Shown here piece by piece: positions 13,866 through 46,910 of a stretch of 47,750 bases of DNA. The position numbers and the translations under genes are program-made. The first letter of the stretch is position 1; each line of letters opens with the position of its first letter. Source of the stretch: a phage; sequence record PZ379542.1, one strand, 5' to 3'. Below the pieces are notes generated by a model. The model searched no databases, had not been told where the DNA came from, and worked only from the letters and a program-made list of their open reading frames with translations.

Positions 13866-14675
13866 ATGCTTCCAGTAGAGCGCTTAGTGGCGAACTTTGA
13901 TAAAGAGAAAATTAAACAGATTCAGAAAGATTACCAGTTTGGAGACATAACGCCTTACGAATTCCAGTGCGTGACATTTGACGCAATCGGTAAGGCTATT
14001 GGCAAGTACGAAGCGCCATTCATCGCAGACCTGTCGGTGTCTGCTGGTAAGACAATTATACTCGCCATGATTGGGAAACGAATGGAACAGCTTGGCCTTC
14101 CTTACATGGTCCTATCTCGCCAGTCAGAGATTATCAGCCAGAACGCAGAGGAACTTCGTAATTTCGGCATCCGTAATAGCGTCTATTGCGCTGGCCTTAA
14201 CGTTAAATCAGTTTACTACCCAACCATAGTGGCTAGCGAGGGTACGGCTGCCAACGGCTTATTTAAGGGGCTTGGTGACTATGTTCCGGCTGTTATCGCG
14301 ATAGATGAGTGCTTAACTGGAGACACGATGATAACCACCGATTCAGGGATGATGAGGATTGATAGCGAAGACCTTATCAATCATAAAATAAAATGCATAA
14401 ACGAAAGCACTGGTGATTACTTCTATCATAAGCCAAAAAGAGTTTTTACTAATGGTGTAAGACATGTATCATCAATTAAATTAGAAAGCGGAGAGGAAAT
14501 AAAATGCACGAGTACACACAAACTTTATTCGAACGGCTGCTGGGTAGGAGCGGGAAAACTTCGTATTGGGATGAATCTGTCGCTAGACGGCTCGCAGGAC
14601 AAATTTACGAAAAAGCTCCTGCGTGCAAGTGTGGCTGTGGTGAAAAAGTTATGCCGCATTCAAGCAAGGGGTTAG
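13866..14675 (+). CDS. SF2 helicase N-terminal part (Walker A, DE of DECH) fused to intein N-terminal splicing domain
   Basis: SVSAGKT Walker A; AIDE then CLTGDT (intein block A) and TSTH...GCWVGAGKLRIGMNL (block B); frame ends at TAG 14674-14676. Confidence 0.8.
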   Translation: MLPVERLVANFDKEKIKQIQKDYQFGDITPYEFQCVTFDAIGKAIGKYEAPFIADLSVSAGKTIILAMIGKRMEQLGLPYMVLSRQSEIISQNAEELRNFGIRNSVYCAGLNVKSVYYPTIVASEGTAANGLFKGLGDYVPAVIAIDECLTGDTMITTDSGMMRIDSEDLINHKIKCINESTGDYFYHKPKRVFTNGVRHVSSIKLESGEEIKCTSTHKLYSNGCWVGAGKLRIGMNLSLDGSQDKFTKKLLRASVAVVKKLCRIQARG

Positions 14676-15449
14676 GCGTACTTCTTAAGAACCCTTTCGA
14701 TTTCTATTTGGATTACAGAACGGGGCATCATAATTCAACCGTCAACCCATCAATGGAGGTTGATGACTTTTTACATCAAAACATTCTTGCGGCAATGGCT
14801 GGTGATGGTTGCTTGATTAAAAATACAGAAAAAGGAACGCATAGGCTATCTTGGAATATGGGAAATAAGGAGCACGCACTAAGCAAGGTTGAAAGGTTTG
14901 CAAAACTAAACCCTAGATACAGGGAGAAGAAAAACCCTGGATTTGGCGACAACTGGTTTTGCGTATCAACATCATGTACGAAAGTTCTGGATTCATATGC
15001 TGATAAGTACGGAAATTCTAAGGATGGTTACGATATTGGAAAGATATGCAGAGAGCTTAATCCAGTTGGTTGGGCTGCTTACTTTGGTGATGATGGTCAT
15101 TGCACTGTAAGCTCAGGGAAGAGGGTTGTAGAAATCCACACCGAATCATTTAGCAGGCGTGAAGTTCAATCAGTAGTTGATGCGCTAATAGCATTTATTG
15201 CTAATGACGGAGTTAAGGTTAGAAGCTATATTGGCGGCAAGAAAAAGAGAGAGCTTTACTCAGTATCAATAACAACGAGGTCGGCACAAGATGAGTTTTT
15301 TAAGAGAATTAGTAAGCACATGGAAAATGGCGTGGAATACAAAATCAAGCAAAATTAAAGACATCTCACCCATTGGCAAGGAACTTGTTTGGGATATAGA
15401 GATGCCTGAGCACCATAATTTCATTGCTGACGGGGTCGTGGCACATAAT
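14310..15449 (+). mobile_element. intein in helicase motif II (DE|CH), LAGLIDADG type; split or frame-shifted
   Basis: Starts Cys 14310; ends ...GVVAHN 15449 followed by +1 Cys; exactly 1140 nt; the endonuclease domain is in a different frame. Confidence 0.75.
14504..15358 (+). CDS. LAGLIDADG homing endonuclease (intein-associated; separate frame)
   Basis: Two motifs ILAAMAGDGC and WAAYFGDDGH about 100 aa apart; GGAGAGG RBS 7 nt before ATG 14504 (alternative ATG 14651). Confidence 0.65.
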   Translation: MHEYTQTLFERLLGRSGKTSYWDESVARRLAGQIYEKAPACKCGCGEKVMPHSSKGLGVLLKNPFDFYLDYRTGHHNSTVNPSMEVDDFLHQNILAAMAGDGCLIKNTEKGTHRLSWNMGNKEHALSKVERFAKLNPRYREKKNPGFGDNWFCVSTSCTKVLDSYADKYGNSKDGYDIGKICRELNPVGWAAYFGDDGHCTVSSGKRVVEIHTESFSRREVQSVVDALIAFIANDGVKVRSYIGGKKKRELYSVSITTRSAQDEFFKRISKHMENGVEYKIKQN

Positions 15450-28758: not shown

Positions 28759-29181
28759 ATGAAATTAAGCAAATCTCAAAGGGAAGAGTTGAAGGGCAAG
28801 TTCGGTGGTCGCTGCGCTTATTGTGGGTGTGAACTACCTGAGAAAGGCTGGCATGCTGACCATGTTGAACCGGTGCTACGTAAATCTGAGGTATGCATGA
28901 AGGCAGCGGAGAAAGGAACTTTCAAGCTGAAGGCGACAGGTGAGTTTAATCGACCACAAGCTGATCGAATGGAAAACCTTTACCCTGCATGTGCTCCATG
29001 CAACCTCATGAAAACTTGCTATTCCCTTGAAATGTTCAGGGAACAGGTGTCTCTTCAAGTAGCTCGCGGGCGTAAGAGCAGCATGAATTTTCGCACGGCA
29101 GAGCGGTTCGGCCTCATCTCCATAGTGGAGGATCCAGTTGTTTTCTGGTTTGAGAAGTTTGAGCAAATTAACAAAATCTGA
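28759..29181 (+). CDS. HNH endonuclease
   Basis: CAYCG...HADHVEP...NLYPACAPCN HNH zinc-finger motifs. Confidence 0.8.
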   Translation: MKLSKSQREELKGKFGGRCAYCGCELPEKGWHADHVEPVLRKSEVCMKAAEKGTFKLKATGEFNRPQADRMENLYPACAPCNLMKTCYSLEMFREQVSLQVARGRKSSMNFRTAERFGLISIVEDPVVFWFEKFEQINKI

Positions 29182-35355: not shown

Positions 35356-36040
35356 GAATCAGGTAAACCGCAACCTTAGCGTTGCGGTAACTGAGCTAAT
35401 ATCTGCAATGAAAGAATCAGCTACGCGGCTTAAGATTGACACTGCCGAGGAGCTAGAGCAGGAAGATAATTATCTCGACGCAATCATAGCAGCGCTTATA
35501 GCTTCTGTTGTAGCTACACTTCCGGCAATTGGAGCGTCAATATACAGGTATAATTCATCGCAGTTTCTTGTGCTGGCAATCAAGACCGGTGGCGGCTCGG
35601 TCCAGTCAGTTATGGACTTGAGACTTAACGGTATAAATGGAGATGAAGATTGGTATCAGCCGGATTTAAAACAGTGGCTTTACACATCAAATAAGTCCGT
35701 TGAAAAGTTACTCAACAATATCAAGGACGACTTTATTCAGTCTGCATCAATCATACAGAGTGGTGACTACCTTAAGATTAACGAAAGGTACAAGATTTAC
35801 CGCAAGAGAACTGCTAATATAGCCTCAGGCATCACGTCCAGTATTAACTCTACGTTCATGCGCAGGAGGCTAGAGGATGCTGGTGTTACCCATTACATTT
35901 GGCACGGCATGCTTGATGAAAGGGAGCGAATGACCCATTTCAAGAAAGAGGGCCTAAGCTTCAGGTTGAGCGGTAACGATCTCTTCCCTGGTCAGGAATA
36001 CGGCTGTCGTTGTTGGGCTGTGCCGGATTGGGAGTCATAA
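35312..36040 (+). CDS. minor head / head morphogenesis protein
   Basis: Position after portal, overlapping its 3' end. Confidence 0.55.
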   Translation: MKPVKTRWKYPQTIENQVNRNLSVAVTELISAMKESATRLKIDTAEELEQEDNYLDAIIAALIASVVATLPAIGASIYRYNSSQFLVLAIKTGGGSVQSVMDLRLNGINGDEDWYQPDLKQWLYTSNKSVEKLLNNIKDDFIQSASIIQSGDYLKINERYKIYRKRTANIASGITSSINSTFMRRRLEDAGVTHYIWHGMLDERERMTHFKKEGLSFRLSGNDLFPGQEYGCRCWAVPDWES

Positions 36041-36088
36041 CATGAGGATGAAAGATGAATTCGATGGATTTTAGTGAGGAGAATTGGG

Positions 36089-37195
36089 ATGTATAAGAAT
36101 CGCTTTGATACAGCAACATTCAAAGCCACCATTGACGAGAATGGTTTTCTCGTCGATACGCCAGTAGTAGCAAGGGTTGGTGTGCAGGTTTATTTCACAG
36201 AGGACGGTTCGACTGTTCGAGAGTTCAGGCCAGCAGAAGAAGTCTTCAAAGAGGAGTCGCTAGCCAGTTACCAGGGTAAGCCAATGACTCTTGACCACGT
36301 CTTTGTAAACTCCGATAACGCTAAAGACGTAGTGGTCGGCTCGGTAACTGGTAAAGCTGAGGCTCTAGGAAGTACGGTAATTGCGCCAATTGTCGTATAC
36401 TCTCAAGAAGCTATTGACGAGGCTCGCTCAGGTAACGCTAAGGAATTATCTGTAGGTTACTCTGCCGTTCTTGATGAAACTCCGGGTTGGGGTGACCCTG
36501 CAACTGGTAATTATATCCTTAGAAGTGACAACACACAGGGGCTCGACATACCTCCTGACTGGCAAGAGTTCGACGCAATCCAGAGAGACATTAAGGTAAA
36601 CCATTTAGCTATGGTCTTCAGGGGTAGGGCTGGAATTGCTAAGCTAAATATGGACGGGCAGCAAGAAAACCCGTATACTGACAACGTTGATTTAAATACT
36701 AAGGAAAACAAAATGACAGTTAAGATTAAGATTGACTCTGTTGAAGTTGAGGTGTCTAAAGAGGTTGCAGACCACATCTCCAAAATTAACTCCGCTGTTG
36801 AAGCACAGAAAGCTAAGGTTGATTCCATCGAAGCTGAGCGTGACGCACTGAAAGCCAAAGTAGACGCAATGCCCGCTGAAATCGAGAAAGCAGTCAAAGC
36901 TGCCAAAGCTGACGCTGAAGCACTTGCCGCTCTGGTTACTGTAGCCACTGAAGCTGGTGTTAAGACTGATGGCCTGGATGCTAAAGGCATTAAGGTATTA
37001 TACGTTAAAGAAGTTTCCGGCCTTGATGTTTCCGAGAAGTCCGACGCATACATCGATGCAGCGTTCGACATTGCCAAAGAATCTGATAAAATGGCTGAAG
37101 TACGTAAAGCGACTACCGCTTCCGACAAATCTGACAGCGCCGATGAGCCTAAGAAATTAGACCCACGTGCTCGTTTAGCTAAAATTAAGAAATAA
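36089..37195 (+). CDS. prohead protease / scaffolding protein (fusion-like)
   Basis: ATG 36089 with GGAG RBS; C-terminal Ala/Lys/Glu-rich coiled-coil typical of scaffolds. Confidence 0.55.
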   Translation: MYKNRFDTATFKATIDENGFLVDTPVVARVGVQVYFTEDGSTVREFRPAEEVFKEESLASYQGKPMTLDHVFVNSDNAKDVVVGSVTGKAEALGSTVIAPIVVYSQEAIDEARSGNAKELSVGYSAVLDETPGWGDPATGNYILRSDNTQGLDIPPDWQEFDAIQRDIKVNHLAMVFRGRAGIAKLNMDGQQENPYTDNVDLNTKENKMTVKIKIDSVEVEVSKEVADHISKINSAVEAQKAKVDSIEAERDALKAKVDAMPAEIEKAVKAAKADAEALAALVTVATEAGVKTDGLDAKGIKVLYVKEVSGLDVSEKSDAYIDAAFDIAKESDKMAEVRKATTASDKSDSADEPKKLDPRARLAKIKK

Positions 37196-37207
37196 GGAGT
37201 TATAAAC

Positions 37208-37705
37208 ATGGCAATTCGTTCCGTAGCACTGGCTGGTATGGTTTCTGATACTTCTCTGTATAACATCGACGGAGCTTGCGTGGTTGGCGGCAGCGATGCA
37301 ATTCCGGTTGGTGTAGCTGTTAGAGTATCTACGCTAGAACCGTTAGTTGATGGTCACAAATCCGTTGTTGCAACTGGTATTGCTGCAAACGCGGCTTATG
37401 GCGTAGTTGTTCGTTCTCATTACGAGACTCCAGGTGGCACCGCTAAAGTGAAAGAGGCTGTTAACGTAATGACCGCTGGCCGAATCTGGATGCGCACTAA
37501 CCTTACAGTAGCGCCAAACTTCGGTATTGCCGTTTTGGTGGATTCAACTGGCGTAGTTGTTGCAGACGCAGCAGCTGGCGGAGTGGCAACTGGCTGGACA
37601 TTCGCTGGCGGATTCATTCCCGCAGCAACCGCAGATGGCGCAATGCCAACTCAAGGTGATAGCGTTGATGGTCCTCTGGTAGAAGTTCAGGTTAAGCAGA
37701 AGTAA
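37208..37705 (+). CDS. head decoration-like protein (candidate)
   Basis: Gly/Ala/Val-rich 165-aa ORF between scaffold and major capsid genes. Confidence 0.45.
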   Translation: MAIRSVALAGMVSDTSLYNIDGACVVGGSDAIPVGVAVRVSTLEPLVDGHKSVVATGIAANAAYGVVVRSHYETPGGTAKVKEAVNVMTAGRIWMRTNLTVAPNFGIAVLVDSTGVVVADAAAGGVATGWTFAGGFIPAATADGAMPTQGDSVDGPLVEVQVKQK

Positions 37706-37725
37706 GATTATCATTAATTAAACAA

Positions 37726-37749
37726 GCCTCCTTCGGGAGGTTTTTTTTT
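37726..37749 (+). terminator. rho-independent terminator
   Basis: cctcc-ttcg-ggagg + T9. Confidence 0.8.
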
Positions 37750-37791
37750 GTGTATTTTGCCATCCAGATTTAAGCCTCATGTATGATGCTA

Positions 37792-37819
37792 TTGTAACAA
37801 CCACAAAGTCGTGTATAAT
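37792..37819 (+). promoter_or_regulatory. sigma70-like promoter upstream of major capsid gene
   Basis: -35 ttgtaa, 16-bp spacer, -10 tataat preceded by tg. Confidence 0.5.
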
Positions 37820-37857
37820 TGACTCGTACATACCTAACTGAAAAGGAATAAACAAGA

Positions 37858-38799
37858 ATGGCCATTAAATTTGATGCAGAACAAGCAAAAATCACCTCTC
37901 ACCTTGAGCAAATGGGCGTAGATAAAGCTGATGCCGCTGGTATCTGGACCGTTAGCCAGCTTACCGCTGCTCTGAATCGCGCTTACGAAAAAGAATACGC
38001 AGAAAACTCAGTTGTTAATATCTTCCCGGTAACTAATGAAATTCCTGGTCACGCGAAGTATTTCGAATATCCAGAGTTTGATGGTGTTGGTATTGCTCAG
38101 ATTATCGCTGATTACTCTGATGACTTGCCGCTGGTTGATGCTTTCATGACCGAGAAACAAGGTAAAGTGTTCCGTTTCGGTAACGCATTCCTGATTTCTA
38201 CTGACGAAATCAAGGCTGGCGCTGCTACTGGTCAATCACTGTCAACTCGCAAACAGGCATTAGCTTTCGAAGCGCACGACAACCTGCTTGATAAACTGGT
38301 TTGGTCTGGCTCCACCCCGCACGGTATCCCTAGCGTATTCGACCATCCTAACATCAACAACGTTGTTGCTGGTACGTGGAACTCCGCAGCTGCCGCCATG
38401 ACTGATATCACCGCACTTATTGATGCGATCGAGACTTCGACCAATGGCACTCACACCGCAACTGATATCTTGCTGCCCGCTTCCGCTCGCCGCCTGATGC
38501 AAGAGCTGGTTCCTAACACCTCTATCAGTTACGCGCAGTTGTTTGCTACCAACAACTCGGGCATCAATCTGCGTTATCTGCAGTTCCTGGATAACTACGA
38601 TGGCGCAGGTGGCAAAGCTGCTCTGGCGTTTGAGAAGGATCCACTCAATATGAGTATTGAGATTCCAGAGGTTACTAACGTGCTTCCAGCTCAACCTAAA
38701 GACCTGCATTTCCGCTATCCTGTAACATCAAAAGCGACGGGATTGATTGTTTATCGCCCTCTGACGATGGCTGTAATCAAAGGCATCACCTTCGCGTAA
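37858..38799 (+). CDS. major capsid protein (lambda E-like)
   Basis: 313 aa; strong AAAGGAATAAACAAGA RBS region; own promoter and terminator. Confidence 0.8.
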   Translation: MAIKFDAEQAKITSHLEQMGVDKADAAGIWTVSQLTAALNRAYEKEYAENSVVNIFPVTNEIPGHAKYFEYPEFDGVGIAQIIADYSDDLPLVDAFMTEKQGKVFRFGNAFLISTDEIKAGAATGQSLSTRKQALAFEAHDNLLDKLVWSGSTPHGIPSVFDHPNINNVVAGTWNSAAAAMTDITALIDAIETSTNGTHTATDILLPASARRLMQELVPNTSISYAQLFATNNSGINLRYLQFLDNYDGAGGKAALAFEKDPLNMSIEIPEVTNVLPAQPKDLHFRYPVTSKATGLIVYRPLTMAVIKGITFA

Positions 38800-38804
38800 T
38801 AAAT

Positions 38805-38827
38805 CGCCCTCTTATGAGGGCTTTTTT
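38805..38827 (+). terminator. rho-independent terminator
   Basis: cgccctc-ttat-gagggc + T6. Confidence 0.8.
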
Positions 38828-38890
38828 ACGTCTGTACCTAATGGATTTGTTGGGTTATAATCAACCATCAACTAATAAAAGGAGACAAAA

Positions 38891-39136
38891 ATGATTCGTT
38901 TAGAACACACTGGAGCTTGCCTTATCGTTTACAAAGGTGAGAAATATTTGCCTGGTGACACTTTCGAGGTTGATGTAATTTGCGACGGGCTCAAGCGTTT
39001 AATCGCAGAGGGTAAACTCACCATTGAGGGTGACACCAAAGCAACCAAACAAATCGCGCAAGAAGTTGTTAGCAAGAAAAAGCGCAAAGAACCGAAAACC
39101 ATCTCCGAGGCTGAGACTGGTAACGAGTACAAATAA
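38891..39136 (+). CDS. hypothetical structural protein
   Basis: AAAGGAGA RBS. Confidence 0.5.
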   Translation: MIRLEHTGACLIVYKGEKYLPGDTFEVDVICDGLKRLIAEGKLTIEGDTKATKQIAQEVVSKKKRKEPKTISEAETGNEYK

Positions 39137-39177
39137 CAAACAGGGCGCTTCGGCGTCCTTTATTGTATGGAGCTAAT

Positions 39178-39576
39178 ATGAATGATGCAATTTTGGCGTT
39201 TATGCGATCTCTTGTTCCTGCGCTCAAAGCGGTGGATGACGAATCAATTAATGTATGGATTGATTTGGCACGTCTCTACGTATGCGAAAGCAAGTTTGGC
39301 GCAGACAAAGATAAGGCGGTAGGACTTTACGCATTACACCTGATGCTTGCTGATGGCGCATTTAAGGGTGAGAATGAAGGCCTGGAAACATACAGCCGTA
39401 GAATGGCAAGTTATGCGCTGAGCGGTGAATTTTCTATCACTTATGATAACCAGTCAGCAATCCAGGGTGACTTATCATCTTCATCATGGGGCCGCATGTA
39501 CAAAGCACTTCTCCGCAAGAAAGGTGGCGGCTTTGGATTGATTACGTCCGCTGGGCGTGAGTGCGGTTGCCAATGA
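39178..39576 (+). CDS. head-tail connector / head completion protein (candidate)
   Basis: ATG 39178 with GGAG RBS (track start is TTG 39163). Confidence 0.45.
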   Translation: MNDAILAFMRSLVPALKAVDDESINVWIDLARLYVCESKFGADKDKAVGLYALHLMLADGAFKGENEGLETYSRRMASYALSGEFSITYDNQSAIQGDLSSSSWGRMYKALLRKKGGGFGLITSAGRECGCQ

Positions 39577-39944
39577 ATTACTCCCAAGTAGAATCATTAA
39601 TGCGCACGGGCATCAATATCTTTAGTGATGGCGATGGTACATTCACGATGAATACTGGTAAAGGTGGTGTCGAAATTGTTGACGGCGTTGAGGTTCCTGT
39701 AGCTGGCGGCACTGCATTAATCAATGGGCTGGTGAGGGAGATTAAAACCAGAGATATTGATGGCGAATATATCCAGTTTGGTGACAAGCGTGGAATTTTC
39801 ACTTCTGAAGTCCCAATCTTGCAGGGCTACAGGATTATAGTTGACGATGAAACTTACACTGTAGTCGACCCGAGGCCAGTCAAACCAACAGGAACTATAG
39901 TGGCTTACAGACCAATTCTAAGGAGGGTTGCTACCTATGGCTAG
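39561..39944 (+). CDS. hypothetical structural protein
   Basis: ORF overlapping neighbours; start uncertain (GTG 39561 or ATG 39573). Confidence 0.45.
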   Translation: MRLPMNYSQVESLMRTGINIFSDGDGTFTMNTGKGGVEIVDGVEVPVAGGTALINGLVREIKTRDIDGEYIQFGDKRGIFTSEVPILQGYRIIVDDETYTVVDPRPVKPTGTIVAYRPILRRVATYG

Positions 39945-40374
39945 AAATATTGGTGGGTTGGCTACATTTACGAATAGTATTGCTGATTGGATTGATAGAG
40001 CTGATGATAACTTCTCTGATATTGTTTCTGGCACTGTAATTAAGGCTGCTAACGCCATCGTTGATTTATCGCCTGTTGATACTGGTAGGTTTAAGGCTAA
40101 CTGGCAGATTACAGCGAACTCCCCAGCCGCTCAGTCTCTGAATGATTACGACAAAACAGGTGGAGATACAAAAAGGTATCTGGCAAGGCAAGCTCGAGCT
40201 GTGGCTAATTCACCAGCGACAAAGGTTATCTACATAACTAACAGGCTTGATTACGCCTCTGACCTTGAGTATGGATCGTCACAACAAGCGCCAGCAGGTG
40301 TACTTGGTGTAGTCAATATCCGGCTTGGGCGTTACTTCGAAGAAGCCGTAGCTGAAGCAAGGAGTAAACGATAA
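39937..40374 (+). CDS. tail completion / head-tail joining protein (candidate)
   Basis: ATG 39937 after AAGGAGGG RBS. Confidence 0.45.
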   Translation: MARNIGGLATFTNSIADWIDRADDNFSDIVSGTVIKAANAIVDLSPVDTGRFKANWQITANSPAAQSLNDYDKTGGDTKRYLARQARAVANSPATKVIYITNRLDYASDLEYGSSQQAPAGVLGVVNIRLGRYFEEAVAEARSKR

Positions 40375-40772
40375 TGCAGTATGAATTATCTTTGGCGGCA
40401 AGGAGGTTTGTGACTGATTTGGTTAAAACGTTTCCAGTCAGGTATCCAATCTCCTATGAAAACGTAGCCTTTTCCCCTCCAAGAAATGGCGGCATGTGGC
40501 TGAAGTACGATTATACCGAGGCTGACACAGTAACCTATAGCTTGAGTCGCAAGTGTAAGTATTATGTTGGCATGGTTCAGGTATCTGTCTTTTTCTCACC
40601 AGGTGATGGTGTTGATAGTGCGAGGAGAATTGCTAATCAATTGGCAGAATCAATGCTTGATGGTACAATGCTTGACACAGGCTACATTTATGAGGGCGGA
40701 GTAGTTCACCCGGTAGTGAAGTCAAAATCTGGCTGGTTTATTCCAGTTCGTTTCTATGTTCGTCTTGACTAA
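40374..40772 (+). CDS. tail terminator-like protein (candidate)
   Basis: ATGA-coupled; position before major tail protein. Confidence 0.45.
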   Translation: MQYELSLAARRFVTDLVKTFPVRYPISYENVAFSPPRNGGMWLKYDYTEADTVTYSLSRKCKYYVGMVQVSVFFSPGDGVDSARRIANQLAESMLDGTMLDTGYIYEGGVVHPVVKSKSGWFIPVRFYVRLD

Positions 40773-40782
40773 AAGGTTGCAA

Positions 40783-41268
40783 ATGAAAGAGTTCTTAAAT
40801 TCTCTTTACGATTATCGCGATGGTCAAATCTTTCATAAAGGAGGTTCAAAGCCATGTGGGTATGGAAAGCCTAACGGATACATTCAAACTTACGTCTCAA
40901 AGACTGGTAAGAAGTATGTTCACAGGATTATTTGGACAATGCATAATGGAGACATCCCAGAAGGCATGCAAATTGACCATTTAAATGGCAATAGGAGCGA
41001 CAACCGCATTGAGAATTTAAGGTGCGCATCAGTAACTGAAAATAGAAGAAATTCAGGAACGAAATATAGGTATCGTAGATTCCCTGGTGTTAATGGTGTA
41101 AACTACAATAAGCGCGATAATCTTTGGCATGCAATGATTTCTGATAATGGCGTAGCTAAGAGCCTTGGTCATTACAAGTCATTTGTTAGTGCATGTGAAG
41201 CTAGAATTATCGCAGAAGTAAATCTTGGATACCACGTAAATCACGCGATGCGTGATAGCGTATATTAA
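40783..41268 (+). CDS. HNH homing endonuclease (HNH + AP2-like DNA-binding region)
   Basis: HRIIWTMHNGDIPEGMQIDHLNGNRSDNRIENLR; paralogous to the 42982-43467 gene. Confidence 0.8.
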   Translation: MKEFLNSLYDYRDGQIFHKGGSKPCGYGKPNGYIQTYVSKTGKKYVHRIIWTMHNGDIPEGMQIDHLNGNRSDNRIENLRCASVTENRRNSGTKYRYRRFPGVNGVNYNKRDNLWHAMISDNGVAKSLGHYKSFVSACEARIIAEVNLGYHVNHAMRDSVY

Positions 41269-41277
41269 CTTAACTCT

Positions 41278-41955
41278 TTGAATTGGAGGTGTATTATTGC
41301 CCATCTCAGCAATGGCACTCAGGTCTTCGTAGAAGGCACTAGGGGAGCTGCTATCGACGTAACCGCAATTTCCAACGCGGTTAATCCTGTTTTAACTTTG
41401 TCCAGCGTTGCAGATATTGCACGCGGTGACTACCTGTTGTTTACCAGCTCCGCTTCAACTCTGCTGGCTGATAAGCAAGTTCGCGTTACCGCAGTGTCTG
41501 GTTCAACCGTAACTGTTGAAGGTATTGACACCTCCAGCACCACCAAGTTCCCGGCCGGTTTAACTGGTGAAGTGGTTAAGATTCTTAGCTGGTTTGAGGT
41601 TCCTTGCGTTCAGGACGTATCCACTGACGGCGGCGAACAGCAGTTCGTTAACTTCCAGTGTTTATCCGATGACCGTGAGCAACAGATTCCAACTTATAAA
41701 TCTGCGGTAACTAATACCTACACTTTCGCGCACGAATACACCAACCCGATATATCCGATTCTGCGTAACTATGACGAAGCTGGTACTGTTGTTGCTATCC
41801 GTCTGTTCGTACCTCGCGCTAGTGAGATGCGTCTTCAGTCTGGCACTATCGCTTTCAACGACACGCCGAGCATTGGTGTTAACGAAATCGAAACGGTATC
41901 CATTGCGGTATCTATTCGCGGCAGGCTGAGTTCTGTAGCTTCTGAACTGGCATAA
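41278..41955 (+). CDS. major tail protein (candidate); non-ATG start
   Basis: 225-aa frame has no ATG; starts with TTG 41278 or ATT 41296 after GGAGGTG RBS; followed by strong terminator. Confidence 0.55.
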   Translation: MNWRCIIAHLSNGTQVFVEGTRGAAIDVTAISNAVNPVLTLSSVADIARGDYLLFTSSASTLLADKQVRVTAVSGSTVTVEGIDTSSTTKFPAGLTGEVVKILSWFEVPCVQDVSTDGGEQQFVNFQCLSDDREQQIPTYKSAVTNTYTFAHEYTNPIYPILRNYDEAGTVVAIRLFVPRASEMRLQSGTIAFNDTPSIGVNEIETVSIAVSIRGRLSSVASELA

Positions 41956-41960
41956 AAATT

Positions 41961-41983
41961 AACCCTCTTCGGAGGGTTTTTTA
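41961..41983 (+). terminator. rho-independent terminator
   Basis: ccctc-ttcg-gaggg + T6. Confidence 0.8.
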
Positions 41984-41985
41984 TT

Positions 41986-42031
41986 GATAGCACTTTTTGT
42001 TAAAGGCTAAGTCGCGGATTGCTGTATAGTT
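41986..42031 (+). promoter_or_regulatory. palindrome-containing promoter cassette
   Basis: atagcactttttgttaaa; ctgtatagt; ttcatcgaaaaga. Confidence 0.55.
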
Positions 42032-42063
42032 CATTCATCGAAAAGAAATGAGAGATTAATGAA

Positions 42064-42312
42064 ATGAACAACGTTAAAAATATCATCAAACTTGCTGCTG
42101 CTCTTGGTGCTTTCTACCTGGCAATTCAGATTGTCAACCCAACTGGTGGCGCAACCGCTAACTCTGATGCAATAAAGTATGAACATGAATTTAATAGTGC
42201 ATATTCTCATTGTGAAAAAGTAGCTGGCGATAAGACAAATCAGATTCTGCATTATGGTCGCGAGGTGTGCACCGAAGTTGCTCACAACATTGTAAAAAAC
42301 GAATCAAAGTAA
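42064..42312 (+). CDS. hypothetical secreted/membrane protein
   Basis: N-terminal hydrophobic IIKLAAALGAFYLAIQI; own cassette promoter inside the tail module. Confidence 0.5.
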   Translation: MNNVKNIIKLAAALGAFYLAIQIVNPTGGATANSDAIKYEHEFNSAYSHCEKVAGDKTNQILHYGREVCTEVAHNIVKNESK

Positions 42313-42347
42313 TATAATCATTCAACACAAACAAAGGAGATAACGAG

Positions 42348-42662
42348 ATGGCAAAATTTAAACTTTCACTTAAGGCGCTGCCTGACTTTAAACTTCCAGT
42401 TAAGTTCCAGTTAGCTAATGGCGATGATGCAGAAGTAGTGCTAACAGTTAAGCACAAGAAATCATCTGAGTTGCAGGAGATTCTTAACCGTGAGAACTTC
42501 AGCACCAAAGAATTGATTAACGAAATCTGCTCTGATTGGGATTTAGAAGAACCATTTAACGATGAGAACGTAGAAGAGTTCGCGAACCTTTTCCCTGCCG
42601 CAGTTCCGTCATTAATGGATTCATACATGAAGGCGTTAGCGGGACAAAGGGTAAAAATTTAA
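42348..42662 (+). CDS. tail assembly chaperone (G-like)
   Basis: Acidic 104-aa ORF upstream of tape measure; GGAGA RBS. Confidence 0.6.
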   Translation: MAKFKLSLKALPDFKLPVKFQLANGDDAEVVLTVKHKKSSELQEILNRENFSTKELINEICSDWDLEEPFNDENVEEFANLFPAAVPSLMDSYMKALAGQRVKI

Positions 42663-42976
42663 GGCGCGCTGTATTTTTGCAGTACCAATCACCACCAACT
42701 GACGCTGAACTCGAAGCGATTGGAATGAAAAGATCAGACTATGACGGTGAGGAGCCTGAAGAGTTATACTTCGATGAGGATATGATGCAAAGTTGGGATT
42801 TGTACTGCGCCATGTCTACTCAGTGGAGGGTTGGTACATGCGGCGCCACAGGTCTTGATTACAACTGCTTGAATTTTCTTTTTGATGTTTACGAAGTCAG
42901 TGATAGACAAATGGTACTTAACGATATCAGGGTGCTGGAAGCTAAAGCCCTTGATATGATGAGAGATAAAAAATAA
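42566..42976 (+). CDS. tail assembly chaperone -1 frame extension (GT-like, putative)
   Basis: The -1 frame is open from 42566 and overlaps the G-like ORF 3' end; no canonical X_XXY_YYZ heptamer found. Confidence 0.35.
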   Translation, partial: ERRRVREPFPCRSSVINGFIHEGVSGTKGKNLRRAVFLQYQSPPTDAELEAIGMKRSDYDGEEPEELYFDEDMMQSWDLYCAMSTQWRVGTCGATGLDYNCLNFLFDVYEVSDRQMVLNDIRVLEAKALDMMRDKK

Positions 42977-42981
42977 AGCGC

Positions 42982-43467
42982 CTACTGGCGCTTTTTGTTA
43001 CCGTGATTTTCATGGTATTTAAATCTAAAGTCAGCATCGAATCTTGCTTTTTTAGCGTCTGAAATGTTATCAAAATACCCAAGATGAACATCTTTTCCAT
43101 CTACACCTATCCTTACCTGCCATTTTCCATTTGATTTATTCCAAGATACACCATTAACTCCGCTAGAGTTTCTTACTTGCTTTGGTTTGTTCTTTTTGTT
43201 TTCCTGCTGCGTGACTAGCCTTAGGTTTGAAATCCTGTTATCTGATTTGTCCTGATTTACATGGTCAATCTGCATCCCTTCAGGTATCTCGCCATGATGC
43301 ATCTCCCATATTATCCTATGAGCAAGGTATAGCTTCCTATTAAAGCAAACTTGAATGTATCCTCTCTTATGCTTAGTTCCCGCAACGTCGCCCTTTGTGA
43401 ATCTAGGTGATGTTGGGTTTTTCCATATCAATTTCATTCCATCATAATCAAACAAATATTTAAACAT
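42982..43467 (-). CDS. HNH homing endonuclease (HNH + AP2-like)
   Basis: AHRIIWEMHHGEIPEGMQIDHVNQDKSDNRISNLR; opposite strand inside the tail operon. Confidence 0.8.
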   Translation of the reverse strand: MFKYLFDYDGMKLIWKNPTSPRFTKGDVAGTKHKRGYIQVCFNRKLYLAHRIIWEMHHGEIPEGMQIDHVNQDKSDNRISNLRLVTQQENKKNKPKQVRNSSGVNGVSWNKSNGKWQVRIGVDGKDVHLGYFDNISDAKKARFDADFRFKYHENHGNKKRQ

Positions 43468-43558
43468 TTTACCCCCAAAGTCGAAGTGTTAATGTATTAT
43501 ACATACTGAGATTTATTGTTTTTGACTTTTGGTGCTATTAGCTACTAGTGGAGGAAAA

Positions 43559-46531
43559 ATGGCAACTAACGAAATTGCTGGTATCACGCTAGCCGTCGAC
43601 GTCGCTCAGGTCGATAAGGGTACACAATCATTACAGAAATTCAGGCAAGCAAACGAGCAAGCTGCAACAGGCATTAATAGCTTCGTCAACGCCGAACTTG
43701 TAGCCAAGACTCAAGCAAGGGACACCGCAAGGCAGCTTGAGGAGCAGCGCAAATCTTTCGCATCACTTCAACAAGTCATAGACCCAACTGCCGCTAAATT
43801 CCAGAAGCTTCAGAAAGCAGCAACTGAATTAGACAAGGCGTTTGAATCTGGAATAGTTCCTGATGATGAGTTCTTCCGGCTTGGCTCTGTTATTGAAACT
43901 CAAATAAATAAGCTAAACAGGTCTAAAGCAGCTCTTAGCGAGGAAGGGCGAGCTGCACTACAGGCATCAATAGATAAAGAAAAGGCAACAGCAGCCGCGC
44001 AAAAGTTCATTCAATCTCTTGAGAACGAGGCGAATGCAGCAAGCCTTACAAGGACTGAACTACTTCAACTTAAGGCTGCTCAACTCGGAGTTAGTGACCA
44101 AGCGGCACCGATTATCGACAGGATTGGCAAGGCCGCCGAGGCATCTGCTGTTCAGTTACAGAAGCAAAGCTCCGCTTTTGTTAAGTCAGGTTTAAGCGCC
44201 GGTCAGTACAAGCAAGCAATACGACAGCTACCAGCTCAGATTACAGATATCGGAACATCTCTTGCTGGCGGCATCCCAATCTGGCTCATTGCAATTCAGC
44301 AGGGTGGGCAGATTAAGGATAGCTTTGGTGGTATTGCTAACACCGCAAGGTTCGCACTGGCAGCCATTAACCCATTAACGGCAGTTGTTGGGACTTTGGG
44401 CTTGGCCCTCGGCGCTCTTGGTGTTGCTGCTTATCAGGCTGACAAGAACACTCGCGGACTAGCATCAACGATAACATTGGTTGGCAACTCAACTATCACG
44501 TCGACAGCGCAGATAAATCAGGTTGTTGATGGAATTGAGAGTTCAACACTAGCCACGCGCGGACTTATCCAGGAGATAGCTAACAGCCTGGTAGCAAACG
44601 GTAATCTGACTCTTACGCAGATAGATAAGATAACCAAGGCGACAGCACAATGGGCAACTGTAACATCAACAGACTCGAAAACTATTCTTGGATACTTTGA
44701 TCAGATTACAAAGGACCCAATTCAAGGTCTGATTGCACTCGATAAGCAGTTCAACTTCCTTCAGTCTGGGCAATTGAAATACATTGAGAATATCAGGAAG
44801 ACGGCTGGAGAAACAGAGGCTGTAACCGCAGCTACTGAGCTATTCGCTAACGTTATGGAAAACAGGCTAGCAGACGTAGCACTAAGCCTTAACCCTCTTG
44901 AGAGCGCATGGAATAGCTTCAGGAAGTTTGTAAGTGAGATTTGGGATGATATAAGCAAAAGGACGCTTGGGGCGCTTAACTTAATAACTGACGTTGTTGC
45001 TGGGACTATTGAGCAGATAAGGTCGTTAATAAACTCCGGCGATATCCTATTGGGCGAGTTTGCAATAGCAGCAACCAAGACACTTCAGTCAATACCTGGA
45101 CTTGGCGATTTAGGCAATGAAGCAATCGCTGAGCAGCAAAAGATTGTTGATGCAGCTAAGAAGCAAAATGAGGAGTTAGCAAAAAGCATAGCTGAGCGAG
45201 ATGCGAGAATCAGGAAGGGTGAGCTTGGTTATGTCGAGAACAACAATAACACCAACCTTAGCGGCAATAATGCATCAACCGATAAGGAGTTTGCAGCAAG
45301 GAAGAAGGCTCTTGCCGATGAGTATGATGCGATAAAGAAAGCAAGGAGTGAGAGGAAAAAGGCTGTAAAAGAAGAAAGGGATTTAACTTTATCTTATGAA
45401 TCTGGCGTTCTTGCACTTCAGGCTCAGTTAAAGGTCTTACAAGAGCACAGAACGATAAATGATGTAATAAGCAATGAAAGAAAGCAGTTATTCCAGGAAG
45501 AAGCGAAGTTTGCAATACTTGAACAAAGACAAGCGGATGGTACGCTTACAAAATCACAGGCTAAGCTACTTGCGCAGAAGAATATCATTCTTGAACAGGC
45601 TAAACAGAAGGCTGAACTTGGTGACCAGATTGTGCTTCAGGAGAGGTCAAACAAGTTACTTGATGACAACCTTAAGAAGACTGTGCAGATTACAAATGAA
45701 GCAAATAATTTTTCACTTGCTGCTAATTTATCTGACAGGGAGAAGCAAAGAGCAAAAGAGCTTCAGGCACTTCAATCCAATCAGGTAAACAAAGGTGGTT
45801 CTGTAGATGATACTGATTTTCAGGCATTACTAGAAGCCAGGCGTAATTTCTATGCTCAAGAGGATGCGCTACGTGAAAACTGGCTTGCTGGTGTGCAATC
45901 ATCCTTCGCTAATTGGGCAGAGAGCGCGACAGATGCATTCTCTATCGCTGGTGAATTGACCACTTCCGTCTTTACCGGAATTACCGAGCAGATCACCAGC
46001 CTTGTAACAACTGGCACGGCAGACTTCAGGAGTTTTACCGTTGAGATCCTGAAACAGATTGCCAGGATTGCGACTCAACTCTTAATTGTTAAGGCCATTG
46101 AGTCAAGTCTGAGTAGTTTTGGTGGTACTGGCGGCGCTATTGGTTCAATTGGTAGTGCGCTTGGTTTTGCTGGCGGAGGTTATACTGGTGATGGCGGGAA
46201 ATATCAACCTGCTGGGACTGTTCACCGTGGTGAGTTTGTATTCACAAAAGAGGCTACAAGCAGGATTGGTGTTAAGAATCTGTACAAGCTGATGCGCGGT
46301 TATGCAAATGGAGGTGCTGTTGGTGGGCCATCTGGTTATGCTAATGGTGGGGTTGTCGGCGGTACTAATGTCAGTGTTGGTGGTGTGACGGTTAACGTAA
46401 ACTCTGGAATCGGTGGCGGAAATGATGCTAAGGCGATAGAATCTGGAGTTAAGGTTATCGTGGCTGAGGAAATCAGCAAATCATTCCAACAGGGTGGCAG
46501 AGCGTATCAGTTCTTGCGCGGTTACAACTAA
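43559..46531 (+). CDS. tape measure protein
   Basis: 990 aa, Ala/Gln-rich coiled-coil, Gly-rich C-terminus; ATG 43559 with GGAGG RBS. Confidence 0.85.
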   Translation: MATNEIAGITLAVDVAQVDKGTQSLQKFRQANEQAATGINSFVNAELVAKTQARDTARQLEEQRKSFASLQQVIDPTAAKFQKLQKAATELDKAFESGIVPDDEFFRLGSVIETQINKLNRSKAALSEEGRAALQASIDKEKATAAAQKFIQSLENEANAASLTRTELLQLKAAQLGVSDQAAPIIDRIGKAAEASAVQLQKQSSAFVKSGLSAGQYKQAIRQLPAQITDIGTSLAGGIPIWLIAIQQGGQIKDSFGGIANTARFALAAINPLTAVVGTLGLALGALGVAAYQADKNTRGLASTITLVGNSTITSTAQINQVVDGIESSTLATRGLIQEIANSLVANGNLTLTQIDKITKATAQWATVTSTDSKTILGYFDQITKDPIQGLIALDKQFNFLQSGQLKYIENIRKTAGETEAVTAATELFANVMENRLADVALSLNPLESAWNSFRKFVSEIWDDISKRTLGALNLITDVVAGTIEQIRSLINSGDILLGEFAIAATKTLQSIPGLGDLGNEAIAEQQKIVDAAKKQNEELAKSIAERDARIRKGELGYVENNNNTNLSGNNASTDKEFAARKKALADEYDAIKKARSERKKAVKEERDLTLSYESGVLALQAQLKVLQEHRTINDVISNERKQLFQEEAKFAILEQRQADGTLTKSQAKLLAQKNIILEQAKQKAELGDQIVLQERSNKLLDDNLKKTVQITNEANNFSLAANLSDREKQRAKELQALQSNQVNKGGSVDDTDFQALLEARRNFYAQEDALRENWLAGVQSSFANWAESATDAFSIAGELTTSVFTGITEQITSLVTTGTADFRSFTVEILKQIARIATQLLIVKAIESSLSSFGGTGGAIGSIGSALGFAGGGYTGDGGKYQPAGTVHRGEFVFTKEATSRIGVKNLYKLMRGYANGGAVGGPSGYANGGVVGGTNVSVGGVTVNVNSGIGGGNDAKAIESGVKVIVAEEISKSFQQGGRAYQFLRGYN

Positions 46532-46562
46532 TTAATGGGGCTTCGGCCCCTAAGGATTTTAA

Positions 46563-46910
46563 ATGGCATTGCAAACTTTTAATTGGTGCTTGAACGTTCA
46601 GGCTGGATTATCATTCTCAAACCAGAATAACGTCAGAGTTGTATCATTTGGGAATGGATTCCAGCAGCGTGGAACTGGTGGGTACAGGACAAACAAAAGG
46701 ACTTACACGGTTAGCTACGTTGGTCGTGAGTGGGAGGCAGTAATGAACTTCTGCTTTGACCATATCGTAAAACCTTTCGCATGGACTACGCCGCAGGGTG
46801 AGCTAAAACTTTTTGTTATTCAGCAGGATAGCATTAGCGTCTCTCCGAGCACAAAAGAAGTTCAGACTGTTAGTATGCAATTTACTGAAGTTTTCACGTC
46901 AATGAGTTAA
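46563..46910 (+). CDS. minor tail protein M-like
   Basis: 115 aa after tape measure. Confidence 0.65.
   Translation: MALQTFNWCLNVQAGLSFSNQNNVRVVSFGNGFQQRGTGGYRTNKRTYTVSYVGREWEAVMNFCFDHIVKPFAWTTPQGELKLFVIQQDSISVSPSTKEVQTVSMQFTEVFTSMS

What the first reader, a model, noticed from the sequence alone, without database searches (positions are those of the whole stretch)
40783..43467. Two paralogous HNH homing endonucleases flank the major tail and chaperone genes in opposite orientations, plus a third HNH at 28759
Seen in sequence: 40783-41268 (+) and 42982-43467 (-) share the block HRIIW.MH.G.IPEGMQIDH.N...SDNRI.NLR. The second is the only minus-strand gene inside the tail operon, between the chaperone and the tape measure gene. 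A distinct HNH (CAYCG...HADH...ACAPCN) is at 28759-29181. Together with the intein endonuclease this genome carries four homing-type nucleases.
Basis: partly seen in the sequence, partly recalled or inferred. Interest (0 to 1): 0.45.

Follow-up and report, generated by a model that had tools for sequence, protein, structure and literature searches.

The report
Two selfish HNH nuclease genes in tail operon
Two related but independently inserted "homing endonuclease" genes (selfish, mobile nuclease genes) sit directly in front of the tail-tube and tape-measure genes of a T1-like coliphage; this is common in such phages, apart from one oddity, that the first insertion is always linked to a non-ATG start codon on the tail-tube gene.

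Summary
ORFs 40783-41268(+) and 42982-43467(-) are 161-aa paralogues (40% identity, E 2e-34). Both match Pfam HNH_3 plus an AP2-like DNA-binding domain, and both keep the I-HmuI catalytic residues. Neither is a core gene. The HNH-1 site is empty in 59 of the 60 best relatives, and the HNH-2 site in all 60.

HNH-1 belongs to an old, site-specific lineage (60-100% aa, dN/dS about 0.1). Every member recovered lies between the tail terminator and major tail protein (MTP) genes.

HNH-2 has no relative above 59% identity among 5.8 billion proteins. Its site is otherwise empty, even in metagenome contigs that carry an identical HNH-1. It lies in a tract where the window is 70-82% identical to relatives that are 94-100% identical to each other, which fits gene conversion.

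The third HNH (28759-29181, PF01844) is real and sporadic. The fourth nuclease is a LAGLIDADG ORF, but it is not in frame with its intein.

Verdict: ordinary freestanding homing endonuclease genes, new members of a known kind.

One unexpected detail stands out. Every HNH-1-occupied allele replaces the MTP ATG with ATT or ATC behind an invariant GGAGG. Phage DTL keeps this junction without the nuclease gene.

The parts
40374..40772 (+). Tail terminator gene, which forms the left boundary of the HNH-1 insertion. Its stop TAA is at 40770-40772, and the old MTP Shine-Dalgarno AAGG (40773-40776) now precedes HNH-1.
   Evidence: Pfam Phage_tail_terminator_5, E 3e-19. Junction read. The BLAST breakpoint against Rao1 is at 40776.
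40783..41268 (+). HNH-1, a freestanding HNH_3/AP2-type homing endonuclease gene (161 aa). Catalytic residues are D65, H66, N78, N87.
   Evidence: PF13392 E 1.5e-23. phrog_99 E 1e-44. I-HmuI alignment. Orthologues of 60-100% identity are always at this site. dN/dS is 0.06-0.14.
41269..41298 (+). HNH-1 3' junction element. It comprises an invariant TGGAGGTGTATTATT (SD GGAGG at 41285-41289) and ATT at 41296-41298, at the position of the MTP ATG in empty-site phages.
   Evidence: The element is identical in 8 of 9 occupied loci although dS is saturated. L025 has ATC. The HEG-less phage DTL keeps the element.
41296..41955 (+). Major tail (tube) protein gene. The inferred start is ATT 41296. The mechanical ORF call starts at TTG 41278.
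   Evidence: Phage_tail_3 E 2e-67. Protein-level conservation with synonymous changes begins at Ala codon 41299.
41961..41978 (.). Terminator-like hairpin after the MTP gene.
   Evidence: Fold energy -11.1 kcal/mol.
42064..42312 (+). 82-aa ORF of unknown function (phrog_22925) in a variable slot between MTP and chaperone.
   Evidence: It is absent from L020 and replaced by another ORF in RobRod40.
42348..42662 (+). Tail assembly chaperone gene.
   Evidence: Phage_TAC_4 E 7.5e-32.
42677..42976 (+). DUF1799 chaperone-associated gene. Its 3' half is a strongly divergent allele linked to HNH-2.
   Evidence: PF08809 E 8e-15. Over 42525-42975 the window is 70-82% identical to L011, Rao1 and L026, which are 94-100% identical to each other.
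42975..42994 (.). Bidirectional terminator-like hairpin with T-runs on both strands. It overlaps the last codons of HNH-2.
   Evidence: Fold energies are -12.9 (+) and -12.8 (-) kcal/mol, z about -4. HEG-less L011 has a different hairpin plus U6 at the same place.
42982..43467 (-). HNH-2, a freestanding HNH_3/AP2-type homing endonuclease gene (161 aa) lying antisense in the tail operon. Catalytic residues are D68, H69, N81, N90.
   Evidence: PF13392 E 5.5e-24 and AP2 E 4.7e-4. phrog_99 E 1e-67. AF2 model pLDDT 87.5, with top PDB matches I-HmuI and then AP2 domains. The best homologue anywhere is 59% identical.
43468..43558 (.). Divergent control region brought in with HNH-2. On the minus strand it has SD GGGGG (43472-43476) and a perfect TATAAT (43501-43496). 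On the plus strand it has a new SD GGAGG (43550-43554) for the tape measure gene.
   Evidence: Sequence read. There is no homology to the 28-nt empty-site spacer of L011 or Rao1. The consensus scan found no full promoter here.
43559..46531 (+). Tape measure protein gene. Its first ~800 nt belong to the HNH-2-linked divergent tract.
   Evidence: The start is aligned with L011 and Rao1. Identity to L011 is 87-97% up to about 44350 and 100% beyond.
28759..29181 (+). Third HNH nuclease gene, a zinc-finger type of the PF01844 family. It is unrelated to HNH-1 and HNH-2.
   Evidence: It occurs sporadically in 178 phage records of many groups, is 100% identical in AN_ECEAS and is absent from IME253.
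14504..15358 (+). LAGLIDADG endonuclease ORF lying between the two halves of a helicase intein, in a different reading frame.
   Evidence: LAGLIDADG_2 E 4.8e-7. Frames shown. In-silico splice.

Best explanation
HNH-1 and HNH-2 are two independently acquired freestanding homing endonuclease genes of the I-HmuI-like HNH_3 family, each with a C-terminal AP2-type DNA-binding domain. Each occupies an intergenic slot immediately upstream of the start codon of a conserved tail gene: HNH-1 before the major tail protein, HNH-2 before the tape measure protein. Each replaces the native spacer and supplies a new Shine-Dalgarno sequence for the downstream gene.

The inferred mechanism is as follows. During co-infection with a related phage that lacks the gene, the nuclease nicks or cuts the empty allele near the insertion site. 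Recombinational repair from the occupied genome then copies the nuclease gene, together with flanking sequence, into the recipient.

HNH-1 is an old, site-specific lineage. It is translated in line with the late operon from the former MTP ribosome-binding site. It carries a junction that leaves the MTP with an ATT start behind a strong GGAGG. HNH-2 is a recent or rare arrival. It comes from an unsampled donor lineage and forms a self-contained antisense cassette (hairpin terminator, gene, -10 element), accompanied by about 0.5 kb of donor sequence on the left and 0.8 kb on the right.

Shown here: family membership, intact catalytic residues, insertion boundaries, sporadic and site-specific distribution, purifying selection on HNH-1, and the divergent flanks around HNH-2. 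Inferred only: cleavage, target sites, homing, promoter use and the ATT start.
For: - **Paralogy and family:**. The profile matches I-HmuI at residues 1-98 (E 1.5e-7) and an AP2 domain at residues 99-150 (E 2.5e-5). The structure model agrees.
- **Catalytic residues:** D/H/N/N are invariant.
- **Empty sites:** Rao1 has 10 nt (AAAATATATG) where the window has 40777-41294. Rao1 and L011 have 28 nt where the window has 42976-43548. Occupancy is 1 of 60 for the HNH-1 site and 0 of 60 for the HNH-2 site.
- **HNH-1 site specificity:** the same site is occupied in two subfamilies, Braunvirinae (RobRod40) and Rogunavirinae (phiEB49), and in six metagenome lineages.
- **Selection on HNH-1:** dN/dS is 0.06-0.14.
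- **Recent spread of HNH-1:** HNH-1 and about 1.2 kb upstream are 100% identical between the window and L010, whereas the MTP gene immediately downstream is only 88-93% identical.
- **HNH-2 flanks:** the gene sits in the middle of a tract in which only the window diverges.
- **Literature:** freestanding phage endonucleases, co-conversion of flanks and marker exclusion are established for T-even phages (PMC2988022, read).
Against: No cleavage, target site or homing event is demonstrated. HNH-2 is a single sequence, so selection on it cannot be measured, and no donor is known. The divergent tract around HNH-2 could come from ordinary mosaic recombination, which is frequent in these genomes; other 60-80% blocks occur far from any nuclease gene. 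Strong purifying selection on HNH-1 with saturated dS also fits a long vertical association, or a benefit to the phage. Promoter scans are inconclusive for HNH-2 and for the tape measure gene.
Confidence: 0.82

Rival explanations
1. The nucleases are retained because they benefit the phage, for example as weapons that cut competing related phages in co-infection (marker exclusion) or in some role in phage DNA metabolism. They would then not be purely selfish mobile genes.
For: HNH-1 orthologues are under strong purifying selection (dN/dS 0.06-0.14) with saturated dS, which indicates long retention of a working protein. Marker exclusion by phage endonucleases is documented (PMC2988022).
Against: Both genes are absent from nearly all close relatives, which are viable isolates. 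DTL appears to have lost HNH-1. A competitive benefit also does not exclude homing; it uses the same mechanism.
Confidence: 0.1
2. The genes arrived by ordinary homologous or illegitimate recombination as passenger genes within mosaic blocks. Their own nuclease activity plays no part in their spread.
For: The genomes are patchworks of 100% and 60-80% identity blocks even away from any HNH gene. The tract around HNH-2 also covers interacting partners (chaperone and tape measure N-terminus), which could be exchanged as a co-adapted unit.
Against: The HNH-1 lineage is found only at one site, across two subfamilies with diverged flanks. Identity breakpoints coincide with the HNH genes. The catalytic residues are conserved.
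Confidence: 0.06
3. The proteins act as AP2-type DNA-binding regulators of tail gene expression, and their nuclease function is lost or irrelevant.
For: The C-terminal domain resembles AP2/ERF DNA-binding domains. Both genes lie directly upstream of highly regulated tail genes.
Against: The catalytic D-H...N...N residues are invariant. Most relatives express the same tail genes without these proteins. AP2 domains are the known DNA-binding modules of this endonuclease family (own knowledge: Magnani et al. 2004).
Confidence: 0.02

Closest known systems
I-HmuI (Bacillus phage SPO1 intron-encoded HNH nicking endonuclease, PDB 1U3E)
   Same: It is the best solved-structure match, by sequence profile (E 1.5e-7 over residues 1-98) and by fold. 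It shares the N-terminal beta-sheet DNA-binding region and the HNH beta-beta-alpha motif with the D-H...N...N catalytic and metal-binding residues.
   Different: I-HmuI is encoded inside a group I intron and has a helix-turn-helix C-terminal domain. The window proteins are freestanding, lie in intergenic positions and carry an AP2-like C-terminal domain. Whether they nick or cut both strands is unknown.
HNH-AP2 homing endonucleases of phages and cyanobacteria (Pfam HNH_3 + AP2; PHROG 99)
   Same: The domain order and length are the same. Thousands of homologues occur in enterobacterial phages, with 2,686 and 3,994 phage records matched, and they are commonly annotated as HNH homing endonuclease or AP2 domain protein.
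   Different: HNH-2 is a distant member, at most 59% identical to anything in 5.8 billion proteins. It sits at a site not seen occupied elsewhere, in antisense orientation.
Freestanding endonucleases of T-even phages (Seg and Mob families; 'intronless homing')
   Same: These are intergenic nuclease genes with sporadic distribution among relatives. Their inheritance comes with co-conversion of flanking markers (PMC2988022). The HNH-2-linked divergent tract and the identity breakpoints at HNH-1 fit this picture.
   Different: Seg proteins are GIY-YIG enzymes, and Mob proteins are HNH enzymes with other DNA-binding domains. Mobility of the window's genes has not been tested.

Membership tests
HNH_3 / I-HmuI-like HNH endonucleases | Significant match to the family profile above the curated threshold | tested here: met
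   PF13392 scores 82.5 and 84.0 bits against a cutoff of 24.8.
HNH_3 / I-HmuI-like HNH endonucleases | Catalytic and metal-binding residues of the beta-beta-alpha-metal motif present (I-HmuI D74, H75, N87, N96; residue roles from own knowledge of Shen et al. 2004) | tested here: met
   HNH-1 has D65/H66/N78/N87 and HNH-2 has D68/H69/N81/N90. These residues are invariant in 33 homologues and align to I-HmuI.
HNH_3 / I-HmuI-like HNH endonucleases | Fold resembles the solved family member | tested here: met
   The AF2 model has pLDDT 87.5. The top Foldseek PDB hit is 1U3E (probability 1.00, 71 columns, rmsd 2.8 A). The E-value is only 9e-3 because the match covers a single domain.
HNH-AP2 architecture | C-terminal AP2-type DNA-binding domain | tested here: met
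   The profile matches WRI1 AP2 at E 2.5e-5. Fold matches to TEM1, WRI1 and AtERF1 AP2 domains have probability 1.00. The single-sequence Pfam AP2 hit is below threshold (20.8 against 33.3 bits).
Homing endonuclease gene (mobile, selfish) | Presence/absence polymorphism among close relatives, with precise empty sites | tested here: met
Homing endonuclease gene (mobile, selfish) | The same lineage recurs at the same genomic site in diverged genomes | tested here: met
   This is met for HNH-1. It cannot be assessed for HNH-2, which is a singleton.
Homing endonuclease gene (mobile, selfish) | Site-specific cleavage of the empty allele and cleavage-dependent super-Mendelian inheritance | not testable with these tools
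   This needs in vitro cleavage assays and mixed-infection crosses.
Terminase-associated HNH (HK97 gp74 type), considered for the third HNH at 28759 | Gene adjacent to terminase or portal genes and conserved across the phage group | tested here: not met
   The gene lies 2.2 kb upstream of terS among small early genes. It is present in only a few Drexlerviridae and is scattered over unrelated phage groups.

The most novel reading that the evidence does not exclude
The HNH-1 element is inseparably linked to a non-AUG start codon on the major tail protein gene. All nine occupied loci examined, which include five clearly distinct alleles, carry ATT (ATC in one) six nucleotides after an invariant GGAGG, at the exact position of the ATG in empty-site phages. 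Two occupied alleles (phiEB49, L025) and the HEG-less phage DTL have no in-frame ATG, GTG or TTG upstream. A single T-to-G change would restore ATG, yet it has not done so over saturated synonymous divergence. The most novel reading is that the G of the ATG is part of the nuclease's recognition or cleavage site. ATH would then be an immunity mutation that the element carries with it, with a stronger Shine-Dalgarno sequence compensating for weaker initiation. DTL would then be an immune empty allele left by loss of the element.
Probability: 0.2. Interest if true: 0.55.

Novelty: new member of a known kind. Interest (0 to 1): 0.27.

Why it matters
As a catalogue entry this is routine, because T1-like phages are known to be heavily populated by HNH homing endonuclease genes. 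The comparisons nonetheless give three usable things.

1. They provide base-precise occupied and empty allele pairs for two insertion sites in an E. coli phage tail operon. These could be used directly for cleavage-site mapping and mixed-infection crosses.
2. They correct an annotation. The major tail protein of HNH-1-bearing phages, and of DTL, most likely starts at ATT or ATC, and it is truncated in the public records of phiEB49 and DTL.
3. They give an example of a mobile nuclease gene rewiring the translation signals of an abundant structural gene. If the ATT is an immunity mutation, it would show how such elements protect their own genome at the cost of a weak start codon.

Tried and rejected
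- **Composite element or invertible cassette bounded by the two HNH genes:** rejected. The only inverted repeat is 70 nt at 79% identity, within the conserved HNH core. The two genes also have different histories: HNH-1 lies in a block 100% identical to L010/L011, while HNH-2 is absent from those contigs.
- **HNH-1-MTP fusion by stop-codon read-through:** the two ORFs are in the same frame in six loci but not in L020, L026 or L025. Rejected.
- **More copies of the HNH-1 3' junction:** searches of IMG/VR and JGI metagenomes returned only phiEB49, DTL and two unrelated chance matches.
- **Close relatives of HNH-2:** none were found in IMG/VR, by exact-protein look-up or in the 5.8-billion-protein search. 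The contexts of the nearest homologues (P0002, P0004, P0005) are unrelated to the chaperone|TMP site.
- **Additional homing-type nucleases in the window:** Pfam scans of 20 further ORFs found none. VRR-NUC, a PDDEXK-like exonuclease and ERF are recombination or repair genes, not homing genes.
- **Promoters:** sigma-70 consensus scans gave no convincing promoter for HNH-2 or for restarting tape measure transcription. Eleven sites were found against 7.3 expected.
- **Chaperone frameshift:** no canonical -1 slippery heptamer in phase was found at the TAC/DUF1799 junction. This was left open.
Full report
**What the window is.** The region carries a T1/Rtp-like (Drexlerviridae, Braunvirinae-type) coliphage structural module. 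The gene order is terS, terL, portal, capsid, tail terminator, tail tube, chaperones and tape measure. The closest deposited phages (Rao1, TR2, TR3, CY1, ES, AN_ECEAS) are about 88-90% identical over the tail region.

**Check of the observation.** ORFs 40783-41268 (+) and 42982-43467 (-) both encode 161 aa.
- They are 40% identical over 156 residues (E 2e-34), and the shared region includes the quoted motif block.
- Both match Pfam HNH_3, at 82.5 and 84.0 bits against a cutoff of 24.8. Both also match PHROG 99 'HNH endonuclease'.
- A six-frame phmmer scan finds no third paralogue.
- HNH-2 is the only credible minus-strand gene in the late operon.
- The distinct HNH at 28759-29181 is real (PF01844; phrog_2118 E 7e-55).

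**What the proteins are.** I built a 33-sequence alignment of both proteins and their homologues.
- H50, D68, H69, N81, L82, R83, N90 and N93 (HNH-2 numbering) are invariant.
- A profile of this alignment matches I-HmuI (PDB 1U3E) over residues 1-98 (E 1.5e-7). It matches the AP2 domain of WRI1 over residues 99-150 (E 2.5e-5).
- The pairwise alignments place HNH-2 D68/H69/N81/N90 and HNH-1 D65/H66/N78/N87 on I-HmuI D74/H75/N87/N96. The catalytic roles of those I-HmuI residues come from my own knowledge of the I-HmuI structure paper.
- An AlphaFold2 model of HNH-2 has mean pLDDT 87.5. Its best PDB matches are I-HmuI and then several AP2 domains, all with probability 1.00, although the E-values are modest because each match covers one domain.

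Both proteins are intact HNH-AP2 endonucleases.

**They are insertions, not core genes.** Against Rao1, window 40777-41294 is replaced by the 10 nt AAAATATATG. Window 42976-43548 is replaced by a 28-nt spacer.
- For the terminator|MTP interval, 59 of the 60 best phage records span about 1,040-1,080 bp instead of 1,582 bp. Only RobRod40 is occupied, and only 1 of 688 matching records covers 80% or more of the query.
- For the chaperone|TMP interval, all 60 best records span about 1,410 bp instead of 1,953 bp. In a spread sample of the 394 matching records, every record that aligns on both sides is also empty.

**HNH-1 is an old, site-specific lineage.** Orthologues of 60-100% identity were found in RobRod40 (Braunvirinae), in phiEB49 (Rogunavirinae) and in several metagenome contigs. 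In every case the gene lies between the tail terminator and the major tail protein (MTP) genes.
- Pairwise dN/dS is 0.06-0.14 and dS is at or beyond saturation, so a working protein has been kept for a long time.
- There are also signs of recent spread. Contigs L010, L011 and L012 carry an HNH-1 100% identical in protein to the window's. In L010 the 100% block (39567 to about 41290) ends right at the 3' end of HNH-1, and the adjacent MTP gene is only 88-93% identical.

**An unexpected feature of the HNH-1 junction.**
- In empty-site phages the MTP begins ...AAGGAAAATAT-ATG-GCC-CAT (M-A-H-L-S-N-G).
- In every occupied locus the ATG is replaced. The sequence reads TGGAGGTGTATT-ATT-GCN-CAY in eight loci and TGGAGGTGTACC-ATC-GCA-CAC in the most divergent one, L025.
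- From the Ala codon onward the lineages differ by synonymous changes (GCC/GCT/GCA, CAT/CAC, CTC/TTA, AGC/TCA), so this part is translated.
- Upstream of the Ala codon the 15 nt are invariant at the DNA level, which fits a ribosome-binding element better than coding sequence.
- phiEB49 and L025 have no in-frame ATG, GTG or TTG between the preceding stop and the Ala codon. Gene callers have consequently truncated their MTP to 184 aa.
- I infer that the MTP of HNH-1-bearing phages starts at AUU or AUC, six nucleotides after a GGAGG.
- On the other side of the insertion, HNH-1 has taken over the former MTP ribosome-binding site (AAGG, 40773-40776).
- Phage DTL lacks the nuclease gene but has GACTAA-ATTAACTCATTTATTTGGAGGTGTATTATT-GCT. 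That is the HNH-1 3' junction, including the ATT, and its MTP is likewise mis-annotated as truncated.
- DTL is therefore either a deletion derivative of an occupied allele or a relic of the allele into which the element first inserted. The similarity of its flanks to occupied lineages favours deletion, but I did not test this with a phylogeny.
- DTL and phiEB49 are cultured phages, so the ATT allele is clearly viable.

**HNH-2 is a singleton at a new site.**
- The exact protein is not on record.
- The best homologue among 5.8 billion proteins is 59% identical, and the best among deposited phages is 57%.
- The nearest homologues sit in unrelated contexts.
- Contigs L010 and L011, which share the identical HNH-1, have an empty chaperone|TMP site.

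The inserted cassette is self-contained.
- A hairpin at 42975-42994 has T-runs on both strands (-12.9 and -12.8 kcal/mol) and overlaps the last codons of HNH-2.
- The antisense gene is preceded on the minus strand by GGGGG (43472-43476) and a perfect TATAAT (43501-43496), with a poor -35.
- A new GGAGG (43550-43554) lies ahead of the tape measure ATG at 43559.

Empty-site relatives have a different hairpin plus U6 at the same place (-15.5 kcal/mol). A partial terminator between chaperone and tape measure genes therefore seems ancestral, and HNH-2 landed just downstream of it. How plus-strand transcription reaches the tape measure gene is not resolved, and promoter scans are inconclusive.

**Flanks of HNH-2.**
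- In the 450 nt to the left (42525-42975), L011, Rao1 and L026 are 94-100% identical to one another, but the window is only 70-82% identical to each of them.
- To the right, the window is 87-97% identical to L011 up to about 44350 and 100% beyond.
- Further to the left, it is 100% identical from 39567 to about 42370.

HNH-2 thus sits inside a tract of about 1.9 kb of foreign origin. This is what co-conversion during homing produces (PMC2988022). Ordinary mosaic recombination cannot be excluded, because similar blocks occur elsewhere in these genomes.

**The other two nucleases.**
- *Third HNH.* The HNH at 28759-29181 belongs to a different, zinc-finger-type family. It occurs in 178 phage records scattered over unrelated groups, is 100% identical in AN_ECEAS, and is missing from the corresponding region of IME253. 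It is sporadic and plausibly mobile. It is not terminase-adjacent.
- *Intein nuclease.* The LAGLIDADG ORF (14504-15358) lies in a different frame from the two intein halves. Joining 13866-14309 to 15450-17000 gives a 664-aa helicase that aligns without gaps to the uninterrupted 664-aa helicase of Rao1. The same three-ORF layout is present in ES and AN_ECEAS at 96.6% identity. This looks like a split intein with a freestanding endonuclease gene between its halves, as in the 'fractured genes' of PMC2677866.

The count of four homing-type nucleases holds, with that qualification.

**Verdict.** These are ordinary freestanding HNH homing endonuclease genes, new members of a very large known family in a phage group known to be full of them (PMC8594841). 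Homing itself remains inferred. The points worth keeping are three:
- the exact occupied and empty allele pairs;
- the HNH-2-linked conversion-like tract;
- the conserved ATG-to-ATT/ATC replacement on the tail tube gene linked to HNH-1.

Whether that replacement reflects self-immunity of the element, retuned translation or mere hitch-hiking is open.

Noticed in passing
window 13866-17000 (+): The helicase gene is interrupted at its DE|CH motif by an intein that is not one ORF. The N-extein plus a 121-aa N-intein ends at a stop (14675). A LAGLIDADG ORF (14504-15358) follows in another frame, and a third ORF (from 15291) supplies the C-intein (...VVAHN|C) and the C-extein. An in-silico splice restores a 664-aa helicase colinear with Rao1's. 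The same layout is present in phages ES and AN_ECEAS. It looks like a split intein with a freestanding endonuclease gene between the halves ('fractured gene', PMC2677866) in a cultured-type coliphage.
   Followed up: partly
window 41269-41298; L030 (phage DTL) 401-431; L003 (phiEB49) 3984-4007; L025 3490-3506: The major tail protein gene has ATT or ATC in place of ATG, behind an invariant GGAGG, in all HNH-1-occupied alleles and in HEG-less DTL. The public annotations of phiEB49, DTL and contig L025 truncate the protein to an internal Met.
   Followed up: yes
window 42064-42312 (+): An 82-aa ORF (phrog_22925, unknown function) with a hydrophobic N-terminal segment lies between the MTP terminator hairpin and the chaperone gene. 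The slot is variable: it is empty in L020 and holds a different 128-aa ORF in RobRod40. It may be a moron.
   Followed up: no
window 38800-38890; L001 (Rao1) 260-856; L003 (phiEB49) 996-1520; L020 432-1061: A third homing site in the same module lies between the major capsid gene and the next gene. It is occupied by another HNH (HNH_3/AP2) gene in Rao1, phiEB49 and L020, but it is empty in the window.
   Followed up: no
window 35813-46800 versus L010/L011: There is sharp mosaicism. Blocks of 100% identity alternate with blocks of 57-68% identity (37213-37770, 38870-39470, 45770-46160) between the window and metagenome contigs from other samples. This indicates very recent recombination among co-circulating lineages.
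   Followed up: partly
window 42566-42976 (+): The DUF1799 reading frame is open from 42566 and overlaps the end of the chaperone gene in the -1 frame, as expected for a G/GT-type frameshift product. No canonical in-phase slippery heptamer was found near 42650-42662.
   Followed up: partly
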